Below, one piece after another: positions 2,037 through 64,000 of a stretch of 64,000 nucleotides of DNA. The DNA is from a virus: the IMG/VR virus record IMGVR_UViG_3300012921_000081, positions 1,206 through 65,205 of that record; one strand, 5' to 3'. The position numbers were made by a program, and so were the translations under genes. The stretch's first letter is position 1, and each line of letters opens with the position of its first letter. The notes under the pieces are model-generated. The model ran no database searches and was not told where the DNA came from. It saw nothing but the letters and a program-made list of their open reading frames with translations.

Positions 2037-2232
2037 TGGTCGCAAAGCCTCGGATGACGCGTGGCACAGGCGGGAGGCAAGGGCTGTGCGAGGAGCGCGG
2101 CGTGCATAGAGTTGTGGCCGCGCGGGAGACGGATCGAGGATCTGTTTCTTGACTTGCTTCTCGACCTGTTTCTTGGCGCGGCGTGCGCGAGTGGCCCGAC
2201 CAAGGCCGTCGCGACTGGGTTCATTGACAACT

Positions 2233-2576
2233 GGGGCCGAACCGGATTCGACCGGGCAGGGAAGACTTGTTGTGGCGCGTCCAGGAGCATGCCGGCCTGG
2301 TAAAAAGCATGCAACACATTGATTGCTGAGCGTAACTACGCACTCGCGGCCTAAGGCCGTGACGTTCCCCGACCGACGCCCGATAGGGCGGGGAACGAAG
2401 CATCGGGCTGGTCGTCGTGTGGTGCTCTCAGGCACGACGATGAGAAACTACTGTGGGCTGGACCAAAGGAAACGCTGTCGTTGGCGGTTCCGCGGTTGAC
2501 GACAAATCAACGACTACACGCGTAGAGGCGACCTGTTGACTGTCTCGGGACGGGGGTTCGATTCCCCCCGGCTCCA
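2233..2576 (+). ncRNA. ssrA: tmRNA (SsrA)
   Basis: 5' GGGGCCGAACCGGATTCGAC, 3' T-arm and acceptor GGGGGTTCGATTCCCCCCGGCTCCA, and an internal tag frame ending YALAA-stop. Confidence 0.96.
2325..2354 (+). other. tmRNA proteolysis-tag reading frame AERNYALAA*
   Basis: GCT GAG CGT AAC TAC GCA CTC GCG GCC TAA. Resume codon inferred by analogy to ANDENYALAA. Confidence 0.85.
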
Positions 2577-3804
2577 TTTCCCCGGAAGCATGCGTCCGAC
2601 CCTTGGGGTTGGACGCTGCTTCAACGGGTGGTTCACGTTTCTCCGCCGGAGATTGCTGAGGCCTCTTGGGCGGGAAAACTGCGAAACCACTCGGTGAGTC
2701 AGCAAGATTTGTCGGAAGGGGCAAGGCCTCAGCACCAACATCTTCGGCGATCTGGCCCCCGGGTGTCAAGTCCATTGGCTCTATTTTTCTGGCCCGCTCC
2801 ATAAACCCATTCAGCCGAGGCAGTTGGTTGGCAGCTTGGGCAAGCGGCAACAGACGCGGGTCCGTGTAGACGTCCATCGTGAGCTTCTCGTCGGTGTGCC
2901 GCATGAGTTTCCTGCGGACGTCGACGTCGATTCCTTGACGCGCCATCTGTGTGTTCACACCCTTCCGCCATCGGTGCCATTGGCCCTTCTCTCCAGCGAC
3001 CTCCTTACCGCGCGCGATGCCGACCGCCTTCATGTCGACTTCCAACGTGTGATGAGACGGCGCACGATCGAAGACCAGCTCGCCCTTGCTGTGGTTTCGC
3101 CAGTCCATCAACAGCGCGACGAGCTCCTCGTTCATCGGGATCAGGTCGTTTCGCTTGGACTTGTCGCCGGTGAGGCGCAGGACCTTCTTGGCGAGGTTGA
3201 TGTCTTCCCAACGCTGGCGCCGTGCCTCGCGATACCGCAGTCCGGACAATGCGAGAAAGCCATAAAACGTCGAGGCGAGCGGGCCCTTGTGTCTTGCCTG
3301 CCAGTTCTCCGCCTCGCGCTTCTCGGCGTTGAGGATGATGGCCTGCATCTGCTCCCACGTGAACGCATCTGCGCCCTTGCCTCGACGACACCGGGGCAGA
3401 CGGATCGCGTCAAACGGGTTGTTGGTGAAGTGGCGCTTCACTTCCAGATAGGCACCGAAGCAACGGACCTGACTGAGTTTGTTCTTCGCCGTCTTCGCGG
3501 CGCCCGGACCTCCAGCGTTGATCTGCTCGGAGAGCCAATCGACCAGACGGTCGGTGCAGAGATCTGCTGTTGTTGACCACTCGAGCTCGGCCGCGATCTG
3601 CCGAACCGTTCGAACGCTCTTGTCCGCATGCTGGCCACTGAACTGCAGCAGCCCGACCATGTGCTTACGCCAAAGTTTGAGCGCGTCCTCGATCGCGATC
3701 GGCGAGAGGCCGACGCGAACGGATGAAACAGGTTTGTCAGCAGCCTCGTGCTGCGGAGAGCATGCCTCCGCGTCCGACTGCGGAGGGGTTTGGCTCGGAG
3801 ACAT
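2428..3804 (-). CDS. int: Tyrosine recombinase/phage integrase; ORF reads through attL into antisense tmRNA
   Basis: Catalytic motifs LSGLRYREA (R), GDKSKR (K), WHRWRK (HxxR), LMRHTD (H), MDVYT (Y). Start taken at ATG 3804 (MSPSQ). Confidence 0.93.
   Translation of the reverse strand: MSPSQTPPQSDAEACSPQHEAADKPVSSVRVGLSPIAIEDALKLWRKHMVGLLQFSGQHADKSVRTVRQIAAELEWSTTADLCTDRLVDWLSEQINAGGPGAAKTAKNKLSQVRCFGAYLEVKRHFTNNPFDAIRLPRCRRGKGADAFTWEQMQAIILNAEKREAENWQARHKGPLASTFYGFLALSGLRYREARRQRWEDINLAKKVLRLTGDKSKRNDLIPMNEELVALLMDWRNHSKGELVFDRAPSHHTLEVDMKAVGIARGKEVAGEKGQWHRWRKGVNTQMARQGIDVDVRRKLMRHTDEKLTMDVYTDPRLLPLAQAANQLPRLNGFMERARKIEPMDLTPGGQIAEDVGAEALPLPTNLADSPSGFAVFPPKRPQQSPAEKREPPVEAASNPKGRTHASGEMEPGGIEPPSRDSQQVASTRVVVDLSSTAEPPTTAFPLVQPTVVSHRRA
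2551..2578 (+). repeat. attL core, 28 bp CGGGGGTTCGATTCCCCCCGGCTCCATT
   Basis: Identical copy at 63070-63097; corresponds to the tmRNA 3' end. Confidence 0.95.
2585..2622 (+). terminator. Strong GC hairpin directly 3' of tmRNA (phage-supplied); no U-tract
   Basis: GAAGCA-TGCGTCCGACCC-TT-GGGGTTGGACGC-TGCTTC folds into a long stem. Terminator function is inferred. Confidence 0.4.
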
Positions 3805-3840
3805 GTCGGACACGTTGACACAGGACGCGCGGCATGTCAA
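3805..3840 (-). promoter_or_regulatory. Putative integrase promoter overlapping a TTGACA-N14-TGTCAA palindrome
   Basis: Minus-strand TTGACA (3840-3835), 17-bp spacer, weak -10 CAACGT (3817-3812), ATG 7 nt later. Would imply a leaderless mRNA. Confidence 0.4.
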
Positions 3841-4347
3841 TACAAATCTTTGCTGTGCCTGCGCTTGCGAACAGCCGTTCAAATCGATCTCGATGCACAC
3901 CCGCAGCTCGTGAGGAGCCGTGTTCTGTCCTCCGCTCGGGGGACACGAGTCGGCTCCATTCTGGCGCGATGTATCACCTGGCCGCGATTGTCGCGGCTTG
4001 GGCGCGTGTTCATCCCATGGCATACCCCAGGCCCCTGACCCCAAGGCGTCAACACCGAATCGTCCATGATCCGGCCACAACCCAACGATGTCTTCAGGAA
4101 ATGCAACACTGCCGTCAAGAGCGATCAGTCACGCCCGACAGCGCGTCGCCTCACGTTACTCGCATGGACGAGCGACGTGAGCAAATAACGGATGCGGAAA
4201 ACCATGTGCTGACTTTTCGCAGAGTGAGCATGCGGGGGCTTACGCCTCACATGCGAGCACGGTTTCACGAATCATGAAGGCATCTTCACGCATCCACAAG
4301 TTCAGGTGATCGCCCCATCCGCTCGTGTGAAGCTGGGGAATTTCCGA

Positions 4348-4668
4348 TCAGCTGATACCCGTCACATTCGCATCCGTGAGAACGTACTTCCAGTTCGTGC
4401 CATCGGAATAGATGTGCCTCTTTTGTCCCGACTCAGGATCGACCAAGTACCCGTAGTGCCCCTCGAAGTTCGCCGCCGGATAGTCGACCAGGTTCAGGAC
4501 CGCGCCCAGGGATGCGTTACTCGCGGAGACGCGCTGCAGACGCTTGTGCTGGTGCGGCTGGCCGTCGAGGTACTGCCGGACGGCGGCGAAGTTCCCGTTG
4601 GCGTCGGCCGGCCAGGAAGCCTGCCCGAACTCGATCTCCAGTTGTCCAAAGCGCGGAGCGGTACCCAT
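4348..4668 (-). CDS. Small tail-tip/fibre-associated protein (DUF2793-like N-terminus)
   Basis: Follows the tail-tip gene with a GAGGA RBS; N-terminal motif APRFGQLEIEFGQASW...N...LD. Confidence 0.55.
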   Translation of the reverse strand: MGTAPRFGQLEIEFGQASWPADANGNFAAVRQYLDGQPHQHKRLQRVSASNASLGAVLNLVDYPAANFEGHYGYLVDPESGQKRHIYSDGTNWKYVLTDANVTGIS

Positions 4669-4678
4669 GGCTGAATCC

Positions 4679-7144
4679 TCAAGGTTGGCGGCGGACAGTG
4701 ATCACGCGCGGCCGAGAACGGCGAGCGCCGATCGCGTTGCTGATGGCGACGACGAATGAGTCGGGATCGGAACTGCTGAAGTCTTCCCCTCGCATTGCCT
4801 GCGTGTAACCAAAGGCTGCGTCAGTCACGCTCACCGTGCGGCGTGGGGTGGATAGGTCTGCCGAGTCGAAGATCTCCACCACGAAGGGACCATCGGGCGG
4901 CGCCTGGACAACTTCACCGTCCACAGTCGTGAGCGCGGCTCCCCAAGTCTGCTCGCCCGCGGCATTGCCGGACCCATCACGCACGCGGTATCGCCATGTG
5001 CCGACCCACGTCTCTCCCGCCTTGTACTCCGGCGGCCAGATGCTGTTGGGCGGGAGCGCGGCCAGGGCGTAGCCCTTGAGGTTCTTGCTGACAGCCGTCA
5101 CCGCCTCCAGGCTGACACCGGGCGGCTGGCTCTTGACATACACGGTGGCACCCGGCGTGAGAGTGGTGTCGCGGATGACGGTGATGGAGTCGCGGCGGAA
5201 GATGTAGACCTTCGCGCCTACGGCGTGCGCCTGCGGCACAGTGCCGCCCTGGGCCGGGATCAGACCATCGAGCCGGTACCCACCGGTGACGGCCGTGAGA
5301 TTGCGGAGGCAGTACAGCTCGTCATCGATAAGGACCATCTGCCGACCAGAGAGCCAGGCCGTGCGATCGCCGCTGAGATCGAGCACACCCAGAATGTCTG
5401 TGTTGAACGCGGTGATCACCGGACCTTCCTCGATGAGCCCGCGCACGTCAGCCGACATTGCTGACTGCAGTGTTCCACCCGAAGCCCAGGCGGTCTGATT
5501 CGCCGCAGCGTCGTAGCTTGTGCCGTTCGCAGATAGGTGGATGATCGCCGCGCCAGAACTCTTGCTGCCGCGCACGCGCACGACGCCGATGGCAAGCTCG
5601 GCTCCGACGACTTCGTACGGCATCTCGACGATGACGACGTGCGTGTCGGGAGTGGGAATGCCGGCGGCTGAAGATTGCGATCCATCCCCCGGGTCATAGC
5701 CAGTCGGCGCATATGAAAACACGTCGCGGACGACTTCGAACTCTGTCGTTGTGGATTCCGATGTTGCGCGACGTGCATTGCAACGCAGCGGTCCGAAGCC
5801 TTCGACAGAGAACTGCATTCCCGGCCAGAGATTCCGCGCCGTGAACCCGAGCTTCATCGTGTACTGATTGAGCGCGGCGAACGCTTCCAGTTCTTTCCGG
5901 TCCGCCGCAGCCCGTGCCAGTGATCCATGCGTGATCGTTTGAAACGTCTGCTCGGAGTACTTGCGTCCGGCGGTGCGCGACGTCGCTTCATCTTCTGACC
6001 GAGCGGTGTTGGGCTTGAACTTCAGAGTGCGGTCCGCGAAGAGCCACACCACGCGATTGGTCTCGGGCTCTCCCTGCGGAGACTTCTCGAGCGGAGGACC
6101 TCCGACGATCGCATTGGCAGCAAACTCTGGCGGGGTGATGACCTCGCGAATGGGAAAGAACACGAGCTTGTCACCGACCTGCGAGAGCATGATGCCATGC
6201 TCCTGCATGATGTCGCCGATGATCTCCGCGGCCGTCCGGCCTTCGGACCCATTGAGAGCGTCTATCGCCACCGCGATGCGCTCGTTCTCCCCGAGCACGC
6301 CAACGCGTTCCAACGCCTCGGTGTCGAATGCGGAGGCCCGTGCGCCGCCTCCATGCGGCCAGCGTGCCGTCGCGTACTGATACAGCACGTGGCCGACGTT
6401 GGGTCCATCGTCGTCGCCAGCGACGGGAGCAAGATACGCGAGCGAACGATTCAGTTCGGATCCGACCGACGTCGCCTCGATCTCATACTCAAGCTGCGGC
6501 CAGATAGCCGACGTGCCCTGGCGGAATGAGATCCAATCGACGCGGCACATGTACGGCCAGCGACTGTTGATGCCCACGCGCGACGGGTGCCCGAGCCAGG
6601 TGTTGACCGGCTGATCCACCGTGCCCCACCAAATGGCGAAGGTGCCTTCGGACGTTTCAATCTGCGTGCCGCTCGGCGTGTTGTAGCGGTCGATCGGACC
6701 CTCCCAGAGGACCTTGCCGCTGCGGTAGATGCGGTGGAGTTTGTCGATAGGGCCCACCCTGAGCAGGTGCGAACCCTCCTCGTAGTAGATGTTCTGCGCG
6801 GCCGCCTTGGGCTTTCCACCTTTGCCGCCTCCGCCGCCCTCCTGGCGAACTTCGCGGTTTCCCGCCCAGGCGAAGATCGGCGCACATTTGCGCCGGCCGT
6901 TGAGTGGTACGAGGACGCTGCCGCGCGTGGTGAGTGTCGTCGGCGTGGACTGAACCTCAAGGTTCGTCTTGGGCTTCTTCGCAGTGAGGTAGGCCAGACC
7001 GCCCAGTGCGATCGACGCGATGATCAACCCCGTGGTGAGCTCGGCCTGTTGAGTGTCGCGACGGCGCTCGATCGAGCCGGCGACGATCGATCCAGCGAAG
7101 GCCGCAATGCATGCGCCGGTTGCGAACCGCGAGAGTGCGTTCAT
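4679..7144 (-). CDS. Central tail/host-specificity protein (GTA g15 / phage-tail_3-like)
   Basis: GGGGGKGGKP linker, GPIDKLHRIY..GKVLWEG and YRLDGL.. motifs; position after NlpC/P60; ATGA overlap at 7144. Confidence 0.8.
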   Translation of the reverse strand: MNALSRFATGACIAAFAGSIVAGSIERRRDTQQAELTTGLIIASIALGGLAYLTAKKPKTNLEVQSTPTTLTTRGSVLVPLNGRRKCAPIFAWAGNREVRQEGGGGGKGGKPKAAAQNIYYEEGSHLLRVGPIDKLHRIYRSGKVLWEGPIDRYNTPSGTQIETSEGTFAIWWGTVDQPVNTWLGHPSRVGINSRWPYMCRVDWISFRQGTSAIWPQLEYEIEATSVGSELNRSLAYLAPVAGDDDGPNVGHVLYQYATARWPHGGGARASAFDTEALERVGVLGENERIAVAIDALNGSEGRTAAEIIGDIMQEHGIMLSQVGDKLVFFPIREVITPPEFAANAIVGGPPLEKSPQGEPETNRVVWLFADRTLKFKPNTARSEDEATSRTAGRKYSEQTFQTITHGSLARAAADRKELEAFAALNQYTMKLGFTARNLWPGMQFSVEGFGPLRCNARRATSESTTTEFEVVRDVFSYAPTGYDPGDGSQSSAAGIPTPDTHVVIVEMPYEVVGAELAIGVVRVRGSKSSGAAIIHLSANGTSYDAAANQTAWASGGTLQSAMSADVRGLIEEGPVITAFNTDILGVLDLSGDRTAWLSGRQMVLIDDELYCLRNLTAVTGGYRLDGLIPAQGGTVPQAHAVGAKVYIFRRDSITVIRDTTLTPGATVYVKSQPPGVSLEAVTAVSKNLKGYALAALPPNSIWPPEYKAGETWVGTWRYRVRDGSGNAAGEQTWGAALTTVDGEVVQAPPDGPFVVEIFDSADLSTPRRTVSVTDAAFGYTQAMRGEDFSSSDPDSFVVAISNAIGARRSRPRVITVRRQP

Positions 7145-62314: not shown

Positions 62315-62845
62315 TCAGTTGTCGCGAGAGATCTGGGAGTCGCGGAGGCGGTCGTAGTCCTCGATCTCTGGCGCGGCGTCGCGTTCGTAGAACTTGCCGC
62401 AGTCATCACATTCGAGGCCGCCGTTGCATGCGGACATTCCGACTTCGGGATCCGCCTGCGATGGCGACGAATCAATGAACTTGGTGCAACCGCAATCGCC
62501 ACAGACGGGCGCGTCGAAGTCGAACTCGGGAGTTACCACAGGAGCGGAGACCTTGCGGGCGAAGGTCTTGATCACCTGGTCGGTGTCACGAAGGCGACGA
62601 AACAGCGCGGCATCGGCTTGGGTTCTGCAAGCTTGGCACAAGACAGCGCAGTACTCCCCGGAATCGCCGCGGCTGCCGGTGCTGAGCTTGCCGCACTCGA
62701 TGCAGGGGCGGAGAGAAACGGCCGGGGCAGGCGAGCCTTGCGACTCGCCCGCGCCCGGCACTCGGGGGGGGCGGCTGTAATCGGCGACGATCTTGGGAGC
62801 GATCACCCCAACGACCTCGTCGAGGTTCGCCTCGGCCCGGGTCAT
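62315..62845 (-). CDS. Multi-zinc-finger hypothetical protein (first early gene)
   Basis: CIEC...C...CQAC and CGDC...CDDC pairs; ATG at 62845. Confidence 0.6.
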   Translation of the reverse strand: MTRAEANLDEVVGVIAPKIVADYSRPPRVPGAGESQGSPAPAVSLRPCIECGKLSTGSRGDSGEYCAVLCQACRTQADAALFRRLRDTDQVIKTFARKVSAPVVTPEFDFDAPVCGDCGCTKFIDSSPSQADPEVGMSACNGGLECDDCGKFYERDAAPEIEDYDRLRDSQISRDN

Positions 62846-63069
62846 TGCCCCGTTCACGCGGGCGGCGGACCGGGCCAGCAGATCGGTCCCAAGACGCGCG
62901 GACGGGCAGACACGGTCGGGGATCAGGGCGGCGGGGAGGGCGGAACGGGAGGAGCGGGAGGGGCATTCCATGCCTGGCTTCCTTTCGGGAGCCGGAGGCA
63001 TGCTTCAAGGGTGTCCAAGGTCCGCCTATAGGCATCTAGGATGCCCAAGATGACCTCGGGTGATAGAGC

Positions 63070-63097
63070 CGGGGGTTCGATTCCCCCCGGCTCCATT
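63070..63097 (+). repeat. attR core (displaced tmRNA 3' end)
   Basis: 28/28 identical to 2551-2578. Confidence 0.95.
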
Positions 63098-63313
63098 GTT
63101 TCGCTTCAGCTTCACCGGCTTGGGGTGCGCGCGGGAAGCCTGTCGCGCAGATTTGCGCCCGCTCGATGGTGACGTCGCCGCCGTCCGCCAGCAGCTGTCC
63201 TGGACGAACCAGTATCACGGGTCCGACGAATCGACCGTGCCGCTGGCGTCGGTGTCGGTGTCCTTGCCGGTCGACGGCTCAGCGCGCGATCTGCTCGTCC
63301 GCCCGGTCGGCGG

Positions 63314-63560
63314 GCAACACACCATCATCCTCCCAAAGCGTCGGATGATGGTGGCACATGCAGAGCCGTGTCAACTCCGGTGATCGGGCCACCTGCCCGA
63401 CAAACATCCGCTGGGCCCGTTCACGCGACACGGGTGAGTCGCTGCGGAGCTGCTGCCCGGCAGGGTCGCGCCCGGTGCAACACACCATCATCCTCCCAAA
63501 GCGTCGGATGATGGTAGCACATTCAGAGCCGTGTCAACTTCGGTGATCGGGCCACCTGCC
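63314..63560. repeat. Two 84-bp direct repeats (63314-63397, 63477-63560) with an internal 10-bp inverted repeat
   Basis: 3 mismatches between copies; ACCATCATCC-N12-GGATGATGGT in each. Confidence 0.85.
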
Positions 63561-63609
63561 GTCGGACGATGACGCGACATACGAAGTCGTGTCGCCGAGG
63601 AAAATCCGG

Positions 63610-64000
63610 CTACCTGCATTTTCCGACGATTTGACCACACTCAGAACAGCGAAGCATCTTCGGAATTATGCTATATCCACACCCGACACACCGAGAGTGC
63701 GCATGTCGCCGCATGCGAATAATCAATAAACACAAGCCATGCAGAACACAAAGCATACACGTCCACGCCAAAATGTTTACAAATAGCGACAAAAGTCTTG
63801 TGTGATACACATAGCACTTAGACACCGGGGATATCAAACCATTGGAACTATAAACCTCTGCAACCGCAAGCCAACGAAATACACTTCCTGAGCACACCTC
63901 TGTAACTTTGAATACATTACTATTATCACTTGTTGGCGATGATGAATTATCGCCCGCGTTGGACCACAAAGCGTGCGAAACAGTGTAGTACGGAAAGGCA
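63610..64000 (-). CDS. Host membrane protein with C-terminal zinc ribbon (partial, runs off right edge)
   Basis: TM then RCVGCGYSI...CSECG; frame open to 64000; AT-rich. Confidence 0.7.
   Translation of the reverse strand, partial: AFPYYTVSHALWSNAGDNSSSPTSDNSNVFKVTEVCSGSVFRWLAVAEVYSSNGLISPVSKCYVYHTRLLSLFVNILAWTCMLCVLHGLCLLIIRMRRHAHSRCVGCGYSIIPKMLRCSECGQIVGKCR

What the first reader, a model, noticed from the sequence alone, without database searches (positions are those of the whole stretch)
2428..3804. Integrase ORF spans the att core: integration swaps its C-terminus
Seen: int reads in frame through attL (...HASGEMEPGGIEPP) and, in the prophage, continues 40 codons antisense through tmRNA (SRDSQQ...VVSHRRA*, 458 aa). 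Joining attR to attL in silico keeps the frame open for 48 different codons (ALSPEVILGILDAYRRTLDTLEACLRLPKGSQAWNAPPAPPVPPSPPP*, stop 62925-62923, 466 aa), starting with an amphipathic-helix-like segment. Established: some mycobacteriophages use attP inside the repressor gene to change protein stability on integration. Inference: here Int itself has state-specific C-termini that may control stability or directionality. No excisionase is visible.
Basis: partly seen in the sequence, partly recalled or inferred. Interest (0 to 1): 0.85.

Follow-up and report, generated by a model that had tools for sequence, protein, structure and literature searches.

The report
Integrase gene spanning its own attP
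A 60-kb prophage inserted in the tmRNA gene has its attachment site inside its own integrase gene, so integration swaps a conserved helical tail of the enzyme for meaningless tmRNA-antisense residues; phage Mx8 is known to do this, and here a whole unrelated integrase clade does too.

Summary
The tmRNA gene lies at 2233-2579 (+). The 28-bp att core lies at 2551-2578 and again at 63070-63097. The int ORF (3804..2428, minus strand, 458 aa) runs through attL and 40 codons antisense into ssrA. The in-silico attP join gives 466 aa.

The open frame is not chance. Six related attP-form loci carry a tRNA/tmRNA-derived core inside int, five of them the tmRNA-like core. It is crossed in all three frames, and no other frame is open. 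The post-core tail is under purifying selection only in the int frame (dN/dS 0.22 against a 69%-identical phage). AlphaFold2 models it as a confident helix.

Contigs from two independent wastewater and sludge runs contain the attP junction itself. Prophage-form relatives (L004, L013) read into tmRNA antisense for variable lengths, so that tail is junk.

Across about 150 family representatives the median tail after the catalytic Tyr is 135 aa.

The principle is already known from Myxococcus phage Mx8 (IntP/IntX; the prophage form is less active). This clade has no detectable sequence similarity to Mx8 Int, and this prophage and its closest relatives target ssrA. This scan has noted the same layout before on other DNA. 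A regulatory effect of the swap is inferred, not shown.

The parts
2233..2579 (+). tmRNA (ssrA) gene. Its last 28 nt are the attL core, regenerated from phage DNA on integration.
   Evidence: Rfam RF00023, 154 bits, full-length model.
2551..2578 (.). attL copy of the 28-bp att core (T-arm and acceptor 3' end of tmRNA). Int reads it as MEPGGIEPP.
   Evidence: Exact 28-bp repeat with 63070-63097. An identical or near-identical core lies inside int in L001, L002, L003, L010, L011 and L013.
2428..3804 (-). Prophage-form integrase ORF (458 aa, IntX-like): core-binding and catalytic domains, a long tail, and 40 tmRNA-antisense codons.
   Evidence: ORF list and translation. Pfam PF00589 matches aa 179-316, E = 1.5e-15. 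The homolog's fold matches lambda Int 75-356 at Z 19.3.
2866..2868 (-). Codon of the catalytic Tyr313. 145 codons (prophage form) or 153 codons (phage form) follow it.
   Evidence: The column is Tyr in 150 of 156 aligned family members. Position confirmed.
2731..2772 (-). Conserved post-catalytic motif DLTPGGQIAEDVGA (aa 345-358). Function unknown.
   Evidence: L346, G350, D355, G357 and A358 are invariant among 4 homologs at 35-69% identity. The motif is also seen in L004 and P0020.
2579..2631 (.). Strong GC-rich hairpin in the P arm, just downstream of the tmRNA 3' end and inside the int linker coding region. It is a candidate phage-supplied ssrA 3'-end or terminator structure, or an attP arm element.
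   Evidence: -36.3 kcal/mol, z = -5.1 on the + strand; -32.9 kcal/mol, z = -5.1 on the minus strand. A stem sits at the same place in L001. The linker has low dS (0.42) and dN/dS 0.78, which indicates nucleic-acid-level constraint.
2431..2550 (-). Prophage-specific tail of 40 codons (SRDSQQ...VVSHRRA), read antisense from the tmRNA body. A by-product, not conserved.
   Evidence: Relatives in the same frame give similar PSRDS..ASTRVVV strings of variable length only because tmRNA is conserved.
63070..63097 (.). attR copy of the 28-bp core (displaced tmRNA 3' fragment). Host DNA resumes at 63098.
62923..63069 (-). Phage-form (attP) C-terminal tail of Int: 48 codons plus the stop at 62923-62925. 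It is separated from int in the prophage.
   Evidence: In-silico join. 69% aa identity to the L001 tail, with dN/dS 0.22. It is the only frame that is open, and pN/pS is 0.33. Natural attP-junction contigs exist in runs X2 and X3.
62995..63060 (-). Coding region of the conserved amphipathic helix (PEVILGILDAYRRTLDTLEACL).
   Evidence: AF2 of P0002 gives helix 406-427 with block pLDDT 85-93, flanked by disorder. The motif occurs in the C-terminal region of 13 family representatives, against 0 in N-terminal parts and 1 in reversed controls.
62315..62971 (-). First gene downstream of int in the circular phage (218 aa, Cys-rich, no family match). Its start overlaps the Int tail by 47-49 nt. In relatives its start overlaps the int stop (GTGA, ATGA).
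   Evidence: No PHROG match.

Best explanation
This is a tailed prophage of about 60.5 kb (2551-63097) integrated at the 3' end of ssrA. The host is probably a Planctomycetota (Phycisphaerales-like) bacterium. The phage attachment site lies inside the integrase gene, about 100 codons after the catalytic tyrosine.

Shown:
- In the free or circular phage, int encodes a 466-aa protein. It has a lambda-Int-like core-binding and catalytic body, a disordered linker that contains the attP P arm and core, and a conserved amphipathic C-terminal helix encoded beyond the core.
- Integration moves the helix-coding segment 60 kb away, to attR. It fuses int instead to 40 codons of tmRNA antisense.
- The layout is shared by a whole clade of integrases. 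Members cross tRNA/tmRNA-derived cores in any of the three frames, yet regain the same helix motif afterwards. The helix is therefore selected as protein, and the core peptide is incidental.

Inferred, by analogy with Mx8 IntP/IntX:
- The helix-bearing phage form is the integration-proficient enzyme.
- The truncated prophage form is less active or altered in specificity. The recombination product thereby down-regulates its own recombinase and stabilises lysogeny.
- Excision then depends on residual IntX activity plus an unidentified directionality factor.
For: Anatomy.

attP-form relatives with the core inside int: L001 (identical core, 50 codons after it), L002 (43 codons), L003 (34), L010 (42), L011 (42). 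The core sits at frame offsets 2, 2, 1, 1 and 0.

Prophage-form relatives reading into tmRNA: L004 (a Phycisphaerales MAG) and L013.

Selection: the tail has dN/dS 0.22, against 0.14-0.15 for the enzyme body and 0.78 for the linker. Only the int frame is open and shows excess synonymous change. Open-frame probability is 0.003-0.03 per locus in 7 loci.

Family-wide: 159 clusters at E <= 1e-30. The median post-Tyr tail is 135 aa. At least 62 of 150 tails carry T-arm-antisense peptides in three frames (MEPGGIEP, WSRGESNP, NGAGGNRT). These are followed either by the helix motif or by tRNA/tmRNA antisense.

Structure: residues 16-317 match lambda Int, Cre and Xer (Z 19.3). Residues 310-400 are disordered. 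Helix 406-427 has pLDDT 85-93.

Natural attP junction contigs occur in independent runs.

Mx8 precedent: attP lies within int, 112 C-terminal residues are replaced by 13, and the prophage form is less active (PMC6070905; PMC4701971; PMC4383910). Mx8 Int has the same order of parts: catalytic domain, a tRNA-derived STGLEP peptide, then a helix.
Against: There is no functional data for this clade. The activity difference between the two forms is borrowed from Mx8, whose Int shows no detectable sequence similarity.

The test for docking of the helix onto the enzyme body gave no verdict, so what the helix contacts is unknown.

GC3 coding bias fades after about 2850, and the linker evolves almost neutrally at the protein level.

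A strong hairpin sits in the int mRNA just before the core. It could limit read-through in some conditions.

No excisionase was found, so the excision half of the model is incomplete.
Confidence: 0.75

Rival explanations
1. The overlap only saves space. attP drifted into a dispensable, disordered C-terminal region of int. The terminal helix has a role unrelated to the integration state (for example general folding, oligomerisation or host-factor binding), or a minor role. On this view the tail swap has no regulatory consequence.
For: The linker evolves nearly neutrally (dN/dS 0.78) and is predicted disordered. The prophage-form tail is unselected junk of variable length. The docking test gave no verdict.
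Against: The helix is under purifying selection. It is regained after the core in all three crossing frames across a diverged clade. A dispensable segment would not hold an ORF of about 140 codons open in 7 loci. In Mx8 the equivalent swap lowers activity (PMC4701971).
Confidence: 0.17
2. The helix segment is a separate small gene, or the tail is not translated as part of Int. On this view int translation or transcription effectively ends near the hairpin or core, and the apparent fusion is an annotation effect of GC-rich DNA.
For: Coding-type GC3 bias is weak after about 2850. A strong hairpin lies 1-50 nt before the core. The window has an in-frame TTG preceded by GAGG within the tail (sequence).
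Against: No stop separates int from the helix in any of 7 loci, while all other frames are closed. The candidate TTG start is CTG in L001. No terminator-like site was found on either strand. The frame of the core differs between relatives but always reconnects to the helix. That only makes sense if the two parts are one polypeptide.
Confidence: 0.05
3. Suicide-type arrangement, as in SSV-family archaeal integrases. On this view the helix is essential for all catalysis, the prophage integrase is dead, and the element is locked in unless a second copy or a superinfecting phage supplies Int.
For: No excisionase was detected. The helix is conserved. Suicidal integrases exist in archaea (PMC7253208, listed).
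Against: The complete core-binding and catalytic fold, with all catalytic residues, stays intact in the prophage form, unlike SSV-type splitting. Near-identical phage in attP form is found in other samples, which shows the lineage is mobile. Mx8 IntX retains activity (PMC6070905).
Confidence: 0.03

Closest known systems
Myxococcus phage Mx8 integrase IntP/IntX (Tojo et al. 1996; Magrini et al. 1999; summarised in PMC6070905 and PMC4701971)
   Same: Both are tyrosine integrases with attP inside the int coding sequence, downstream of the catalytic domain. The core is derived from the 3' end of a tRNA-type gene and is read as protein (STGLEP in Mx8, MEPGGIEP here). Integration replaces the C-terminal segment with a short host-encoded one. 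The order of parts is the same: catalytic domain, linker, core peptide, helix-containing tail.
   Different: No detectable sequence similarity by BLASTP or by the family HMM. Mx8 targets tRNA-Asp loci, whereas this phage targets ssrA. Mx8 loses 112 aa and gains 13; here 48 aa are lost and 40 gained. Mx8 has an upstream excisionase (uoi) overlapping int; none was found here. The Mx8 Int sequence matches Pfam Phage_int_M (central domain), which this clade does not. Reduced activity of the prophage form is shown for Mx8 only.
Integration-dependent immunity of mycobacteriophages BPs, Brujita and Charlie
   Same: In both, attP lies inside a coding sequence, so integration changes a protein's C-terminus. 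Both use simple integrases; Brujita Int is among the fold matches (5vfz, Z 14.1).
   Different: There the gene cut is the repressor, and C-terminal ssrA-like degradation tags set stability. Here the gene cut is int itself, and neither tail ends in an Ala-Ala-type tag (...SPPP and ...HRRA).
SSV-type ('suicidal') archaeal integrases (PMC7253208; PMC4383910)
   Same: The att site lies inside the int ORF, and integration partitions the gene.
   Different: In the SSV type the enzyme body is split and inactivated. Here the whole recombinase fold stays intact and only a terminal helix is exchanged.
Serine-integrase elements whose gene spans attP
   Same: The recombinase C-terminus depends on the integration state, often at tRNA or tmRNA 3' ends.
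   Different: They belong to an unrelated enzyme superfamily with a different mechanism.

Membership tests
Tyrosine recombinase / phage integrase (PF00589) | Significant match to the family profile | tested here: met
   PF00589, E = 1.5e-15, 57.9 bits against a cut-off of 27.1, aa 179-316.
Tyrosine recombinase / phage integrase (PF00589) | Catalytic R-K-H-R-H/W-Y residues | tested here: met
   R174, K199, H261, R264, H287 and Y297 (P0002 numbering) are invariant or at least 90% conserved in 80 family members. Tyr313 in the window protein.
Tyrosine recombinase / phage integrase (PF00589) | Two-domain core-binding plus catalytic fold | tested here: met
   AF2 model of the 69%-identical P0002, residues 20-310, against lambda Int 74-356: Z 19.3, rmsd 3.1, 266 residues aligned. 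Cre, XerH and Tn1549 Int also match.
Mx8-type attP-within-int system | attP core lies inside the int ORF, downstream of the catalytic domain | tested here: met
   The core at 2551-2578 falls in codons 409-418 of int. The same holds in 5 attP-form relatives.
Mx8-type attP-within-int system | Integration exchanges the C-terminal segment (phage form differs from prophage form) | tested here: met
   The in-silico join gives 466 aa against 458 aa. Natural attP-form contigs (L001; X3 junction contig) and attL-form loci (window, L004, L013) were both observed.
Mx8-type attP-within-int system | Sequence homology to Mx8 Int | tested here: not met
   BLASTP best E = 0.38. The family HMM finds no hit on Mx8 Int. 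The likeness is of design, not demonstrable descent.
Mx8-type attP-within-int system | Prophage-encoded form has lower or altered activity | not testable with these tools
   Needs recombination assays.
Mx8-type attP-within-int system | Excisionase gene adjacent to int (uoi) | tested here: not met
   No HTH_17 or AlpA match in the whole 66-kb record. The ORF upstream of int (4348-4668) and the gene after attP (62315-62971) have no PHROG match. Divergent RDFs cannot be excluded.
SSV-type partitioned (suicidal) integrase | att site splits the enzyme body so that neither fragment is a complete recombinase | tested here: not met
   The whole fold (to about residue 317 of the model) and the Tyr lie upstream of the core.
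Integration-dependent immunity (BPs/Brujita type) | attP inside the repressor gene; C-terminal ssrA-like degradation tag on the phage-form protein | tested here: not met
   The interrupted gene is int. The tails end ...SPPP (window, attP form)...SPPR (P0002) and ...HRRA (prophage form).
Lambda-type heterobivalent integrase | N-terminal arm-binding domain | tested here: inconclusive
   Model residues 1-20 are disordered, and the alignment to lambda Int starts at lambda residue 74 in the best match and at 42-43 in the full-length chains. The window protein has only about 36 extra low-complexity N-terminal residues. No arm domain is seen, but absence in a model is weak evidence.

The most novel reading that the evidence does not exclude
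The conserved post-core helix may be a dedicated directionality module for arm-less tyrosine integrases. On this reading only the helix-bearing phage form can assemble the integrative synapse, for example by helix-mediated tetramerisation or by binding a P'-arm or host factor. The helix-less prophage form would be restricted to excision, or held inert until induced. The product of recombination would then itself set the direction of the next reaction, without a classical excisionase.

A second layer is possible. In the lysogen, the 3' 150 nt of int mRNA is perfectly complementary to the very abundant tmRNA. Convergent transcription or RNA duplex formation could therefore silence prophage int.
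Probability: 0.2. Interest if true: 0.75.

Novelty: new member of a known kind. Interest (0 to 1): 0.45.

Why it matters
The literature treats Mx8's self-rewriting integrase as a rarity ('very few integrative elements', PMC4701971). This work shows the same design in an integrase clade with no detectable similarity to Mx8 Int. The clade has at least 159 sequence clusters, and many members target the tmRNA or tRNA 3' end.

The evidence is clean. The att core is crossed in all three reading frames, yet the same C-terminal helix motif follows it.

That points to a general and little-studied way for temperate phages to couple integrase activity to the integration state. It also gives a short, defined element, a helix of about 22 residues, to test.

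There are two practical consequences:
- Prophage annotations of such integrases carry a false C-terminus.
- Anyone mining these enzymes as genome-engineering tools should reconstruct the attP-form gene.

Tried and rejected
1. Complex prediction of the Int body (P0002 1-312) with the tail (396-451) gave no verdict: score 0.00, controls not run. It counts neither for nor against docking.
2. Coordinates of the AF2 model were not available in the Python box, so I could not see what the helix contacts.
3. ARAGORN missed the tmRNA. Rfam found it.
4. The original Mx8 papers (PMC93896, PMC93897, PMC178153) are not held. Details are taken from papers that cite them.
5. tblastn of P0002 against 50,697 phage records gave only one marginal hit, to a Streptococcus phage integrase. 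There is no characterised close relative.
6. The consensus terminator and promoter scan of 2200-4700 found nothing. That does not settle where int transcripts start or end.
7. All sequencing runs found were contig-level only, so transcription across attL or attP could not be assessed. Run X3 is labelled RNA-Seq but is probably DNA.
8. I considered and rejected chance ORF extension in GC-rich DNA, a separate small gene for the helix and an SSV-type split.
Full report
**1. What is in the window**

Rfam finds a full-length tmRNA gene at 2233-2579 on the + strand (154 bits). ARAGORN missed it.

On the minus strand an ORF runs from the ATG at 3804 to a stop at 2428-2430 and encodes 458 aa. It carries a Phage_integrase domain at aa 179-316 (PF00589, E = 1.5e-15).

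The longest exact repeat between the two ends of the window is 28 bp, at 2551-2578 and 63070-63097. It corresponds to the T-arm and acceptor 3' end of the tmRNA. These are the only two copies in the 66.4-kb record, which IMG/VR classes as a provirus.

Between the two copies lie portal, terminase, tape-measure, tail and replication-initiator genes, almost all on the minus strand. This is therefore a tailed prophage of about 60.5 kb integrated at the 3' end of ssrA.

Int reads the core as MEPGGIEPP and continues 40 codons antisense through the tmRNA body. Joining the attR-side arm to the attL-side arm in silico keeps the frame open for 48 different codons, with the stop at 62923-62925 and a 466-aa product.

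**2. Is the open frame more than chance?**

Yes. The catalytic Tyr is residue 313 (codon 2866-2868), and 145 or 153 codons follow it.

For the window's attP form and six related attP-form loci I counted stops from the Tyr to the int stop. The int frame has none. Each of the other five frames has 1-9. Shuffles of each tail stay open in only 0.3-3% of cases.

**3. Relatives**

The word-indexed search found few homologs. Three could be placed on contigs.

- L001 (Int 69% identical) and L002 (37% identical) are phage contigs. Tail genes lie upstream of int and early genes downstream on the same strand (SMC-like ATPase, DUF3799 family). These are unintegrated, attP-form genomes. L003 is a short contig of the same kind.
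- All three carry the 28-bp core inside the int ORF. It is identical in L001 and has 2 mismatches in L002 and L003.
- Int stops 50, 43 and 34 codons later. In L001 the int tail overlaps the next gene by 52 nt. In L002 and L003 the int stop overlaps the next gene's start (GTGA, ATGA).

A genome scan found L004, from a Phycisphaerales MAG. There the homologous int ORF runs antisense into a tmRNA gene, so it is a prophage form. L013 is another prophage form with an identical core and 68 antisense codons.

L010 and L011 are further attP forms. The core sits at frame offset 2 in the window, L001 and L002, at offset 1 in L003, L004 and L010, and at offset 0 in L011. The same DNA is accordingly read as MEPGGIEP, WSRGESNP or NGAGGNRT.

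**4. The phage-form tail is protein-coding**

A codon alignment of the window's attP form with L001 gives these dN/dS values:

| Region | dN/dS |
|---|---|
| N-terminal domain | 0.15 |
| Catalytic domain | 0.14 |
| First 44 residues after Tyr | 0.29 |
| Linker before the core | 0.78 (dS only 0.42) |
| 48-codon post-core tail | 0.22 |

For the 33 tail codons that do not overlap the next gene, only the int frame is free of stops and shows excess synonymous change (pN/pS 0.33). The other five frames give 0.61-1.72.

The nucleotide alignment shows the classic third-position pattern.

The linker behaves differently. Its low dS with near-neutral dN/dS indicates constraint on the nucleic acid. A strong hairpin sits at 2579-2631 directly after the tmRNA 3' end (-36 kcal/mol, z = -5.1). 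A stem is kept at the same place in L001 despite substitutions on both arms. It is a plausible phage-supplied 3' structure for the regenerated ssrA, or an attP arm element. This also explains why the GC3 coding signal fades after about 2850.

**5. The joined form exists in nature**

I laid public contigs on attL and attR.

- In run X3 (wastewater) a 155-nt contig covers 63000-63097 and continues with the exact sequence of 2579-2625.
- In run X2 (activated sludge) a contig joins the same right arm and core to a diverged left arm.
- These samples are independent of the biocrust source sample.

All the runs are contig-level, so nothing can be said about transcription.

**6. Family-wide picture**

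A profile search of 1.84 billion representatives gave 159 clusters at E <= 1e-30.

- In 150 of the 156 collected sequences (146 of them from the listed best 150; the rest from the word-indexed search) the catalytic Tyr aligns. The median tail after it is 135 aa, and only about 16 end within 40 aa.
- At least 62 tails contain a recognisable T-arm-antisense peptide in one of the three frames.
- That peptide is followed by one of two things. One is tRNA/tmRNA antisense strings (PSRDS..ASTRVVV, or RPATV.R.PLRA), which mark prophage forms. The other is an amphipathic helix with a recurrent motif, hydrophobic-hydrophobic-x-A-[HYQ]-x-x-[YFT]-L-x-hydrophobic.
- A strict version of that motif occurs in the C-terminal 40% of 13 representatives. 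It occurs in none of the N-terminal parts and in 1 reversed control.
- L006, an IMG/VR contig, has the same layout with a different, sense-oriented tRNA fragment inside int.

**7. Structure**

AF2 was run on P0002 with an 80-sequence alignment. It gives a confident body (pLDDT above 90 to about residue 300), a disordered stretch at 310-400, and a helix at 406-427 with block pLDDT 85-93.

The body matches lambda Int 75-356 (Z 19.3), Cre, XerH and Tn1549 Int over residues 16-317. The canonical recombinase therefore ends before the linker. No lambda-type arm-binding domain is evident.

A complex prediction of body against tail gave no verdict.

**8. Comparison with the known**

Mx8 is the documented case.

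- attP lies within int, and integration creates a new 3' end (PMC6070905).
- 112 C-terminal residues are replaced by 13, and the modified integrase is less active (PMC4701971).
- The Islander authors note that some integrases (Mx8, SSV) extend across attP (PMC4383910).

Mx8 Int (533 aa) shows no detectable similarity to this clade. It does have the same order of parts, including a core-derived STGLEP peptide and a later amphipathic helix.

The SSV type differs because the enzyme body is split.

Earlier notes of this scan report the same Mx8-like layout in other tyrosine-integrase families (myxobacterial tRNA-Leu, Polyangia tRNA-Thr, Sorangium ssrA) and in serine integrases. I did not test those. 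They agree with what I found here.

**9. Mechanism**

Shown: state-dependent C-termini, a selected helical tail in the phage form, an unselected tail in the prophage form, and clade-wide conservation.

Inferred, at roughly even odds: the helix is needed for efficient integrative recombination or for stability, so integration down-tunes Int and stabilises lysogeny, as in Mx8.

Unknown: the partner of the helix, the excision factor, and whether convergent ssrA transcription and the 150-nt complementarity to tmRNA affect prophage int expression. No HTH_17 or AlpA family member was found. The Cys-rich gene that follows attP has no family match.

**10. Verdict**

It is a new family-level member of a known kind, not a new principle. 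Interest is moderate.

Noticed in passing
window 63161-63560 (host flank right of attR): A repeat of about 80 bp occurs twice, at about 63316-63395 and 63477-63560 (...caccatcatcctcccaaagcgtcggatgatggt...). Contig depth in the source metagenome jumps from about 1,000 to as much as 34,000 here, with many short diverged contigs. It looks like a high-copy host repeat (MITE/REP-like).
   Followed up: no
window 63600-64000: The last 400 bases are markedly AT-rich compared with the 62.6% GC window. This may be the edge of another foreign segment or a regulatory region.
   Followed up: no
L006:6985-7045 and 5221-5548: In this IMG/VR phage contig the homologous int ORF contains a tRNA 3' half in sense orientation (read as ...NNQTTRVQIPLGS...), followed by the usual helix. 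Three tRNA genes lie just upstream of int. It is an attP-in-int layout with a different target and the opposite core orientation.
   Followed up: partly
window 62315-62971 (minus strand): The first gene after attP in the circular phage is Cys-rich (CxxC pairs suggesting zinc ribbons) and has no Pfam or PHROG match. In relatives its start overlaps the int stop (GTGA, ATGA). In the prophage it is separated from int and abuts host DNA at attR. It is a candidate regulator or directionality factor.
   Followed up: partly
window 2579-2631: A very stable hairpin (-36 kcal/mol, z = -5.1) without a U-tract lies immediately after the tmRNA 3' end, inside the int coding region. A stem is kept at the same position in L001. 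It may be the phage-supplied ssrA terminator or processing signal.
   Followed up: partly
window 2731-2772 (Int aa 345-358): A short motif DLTxxGxxxxDxGA, 30-45 residues after the catalytic Tyr, is invariant at 5 positions among homologs down to 35% identity. It lies in a region that AF2 models as disordered, so it may be a linear interaction motif.
   Followed up: no
run X2, contig over window 63033-63097: An activated-sludge contig joins the same P' arm and core to a left arm that diverges after 3 bases from the window's P arm. This suggests related phages that share one arm of attP but not the other.
   Followed up: no
window 3805-4347: An intergenic gap of about 540 bp lies upstream of int, between the small ORF at 4348-4668 and the int start. 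It has no sigma-70-like promoter match. The int ORF could also start further upstream (in-frame TTG at 4080).
   Followed up: no
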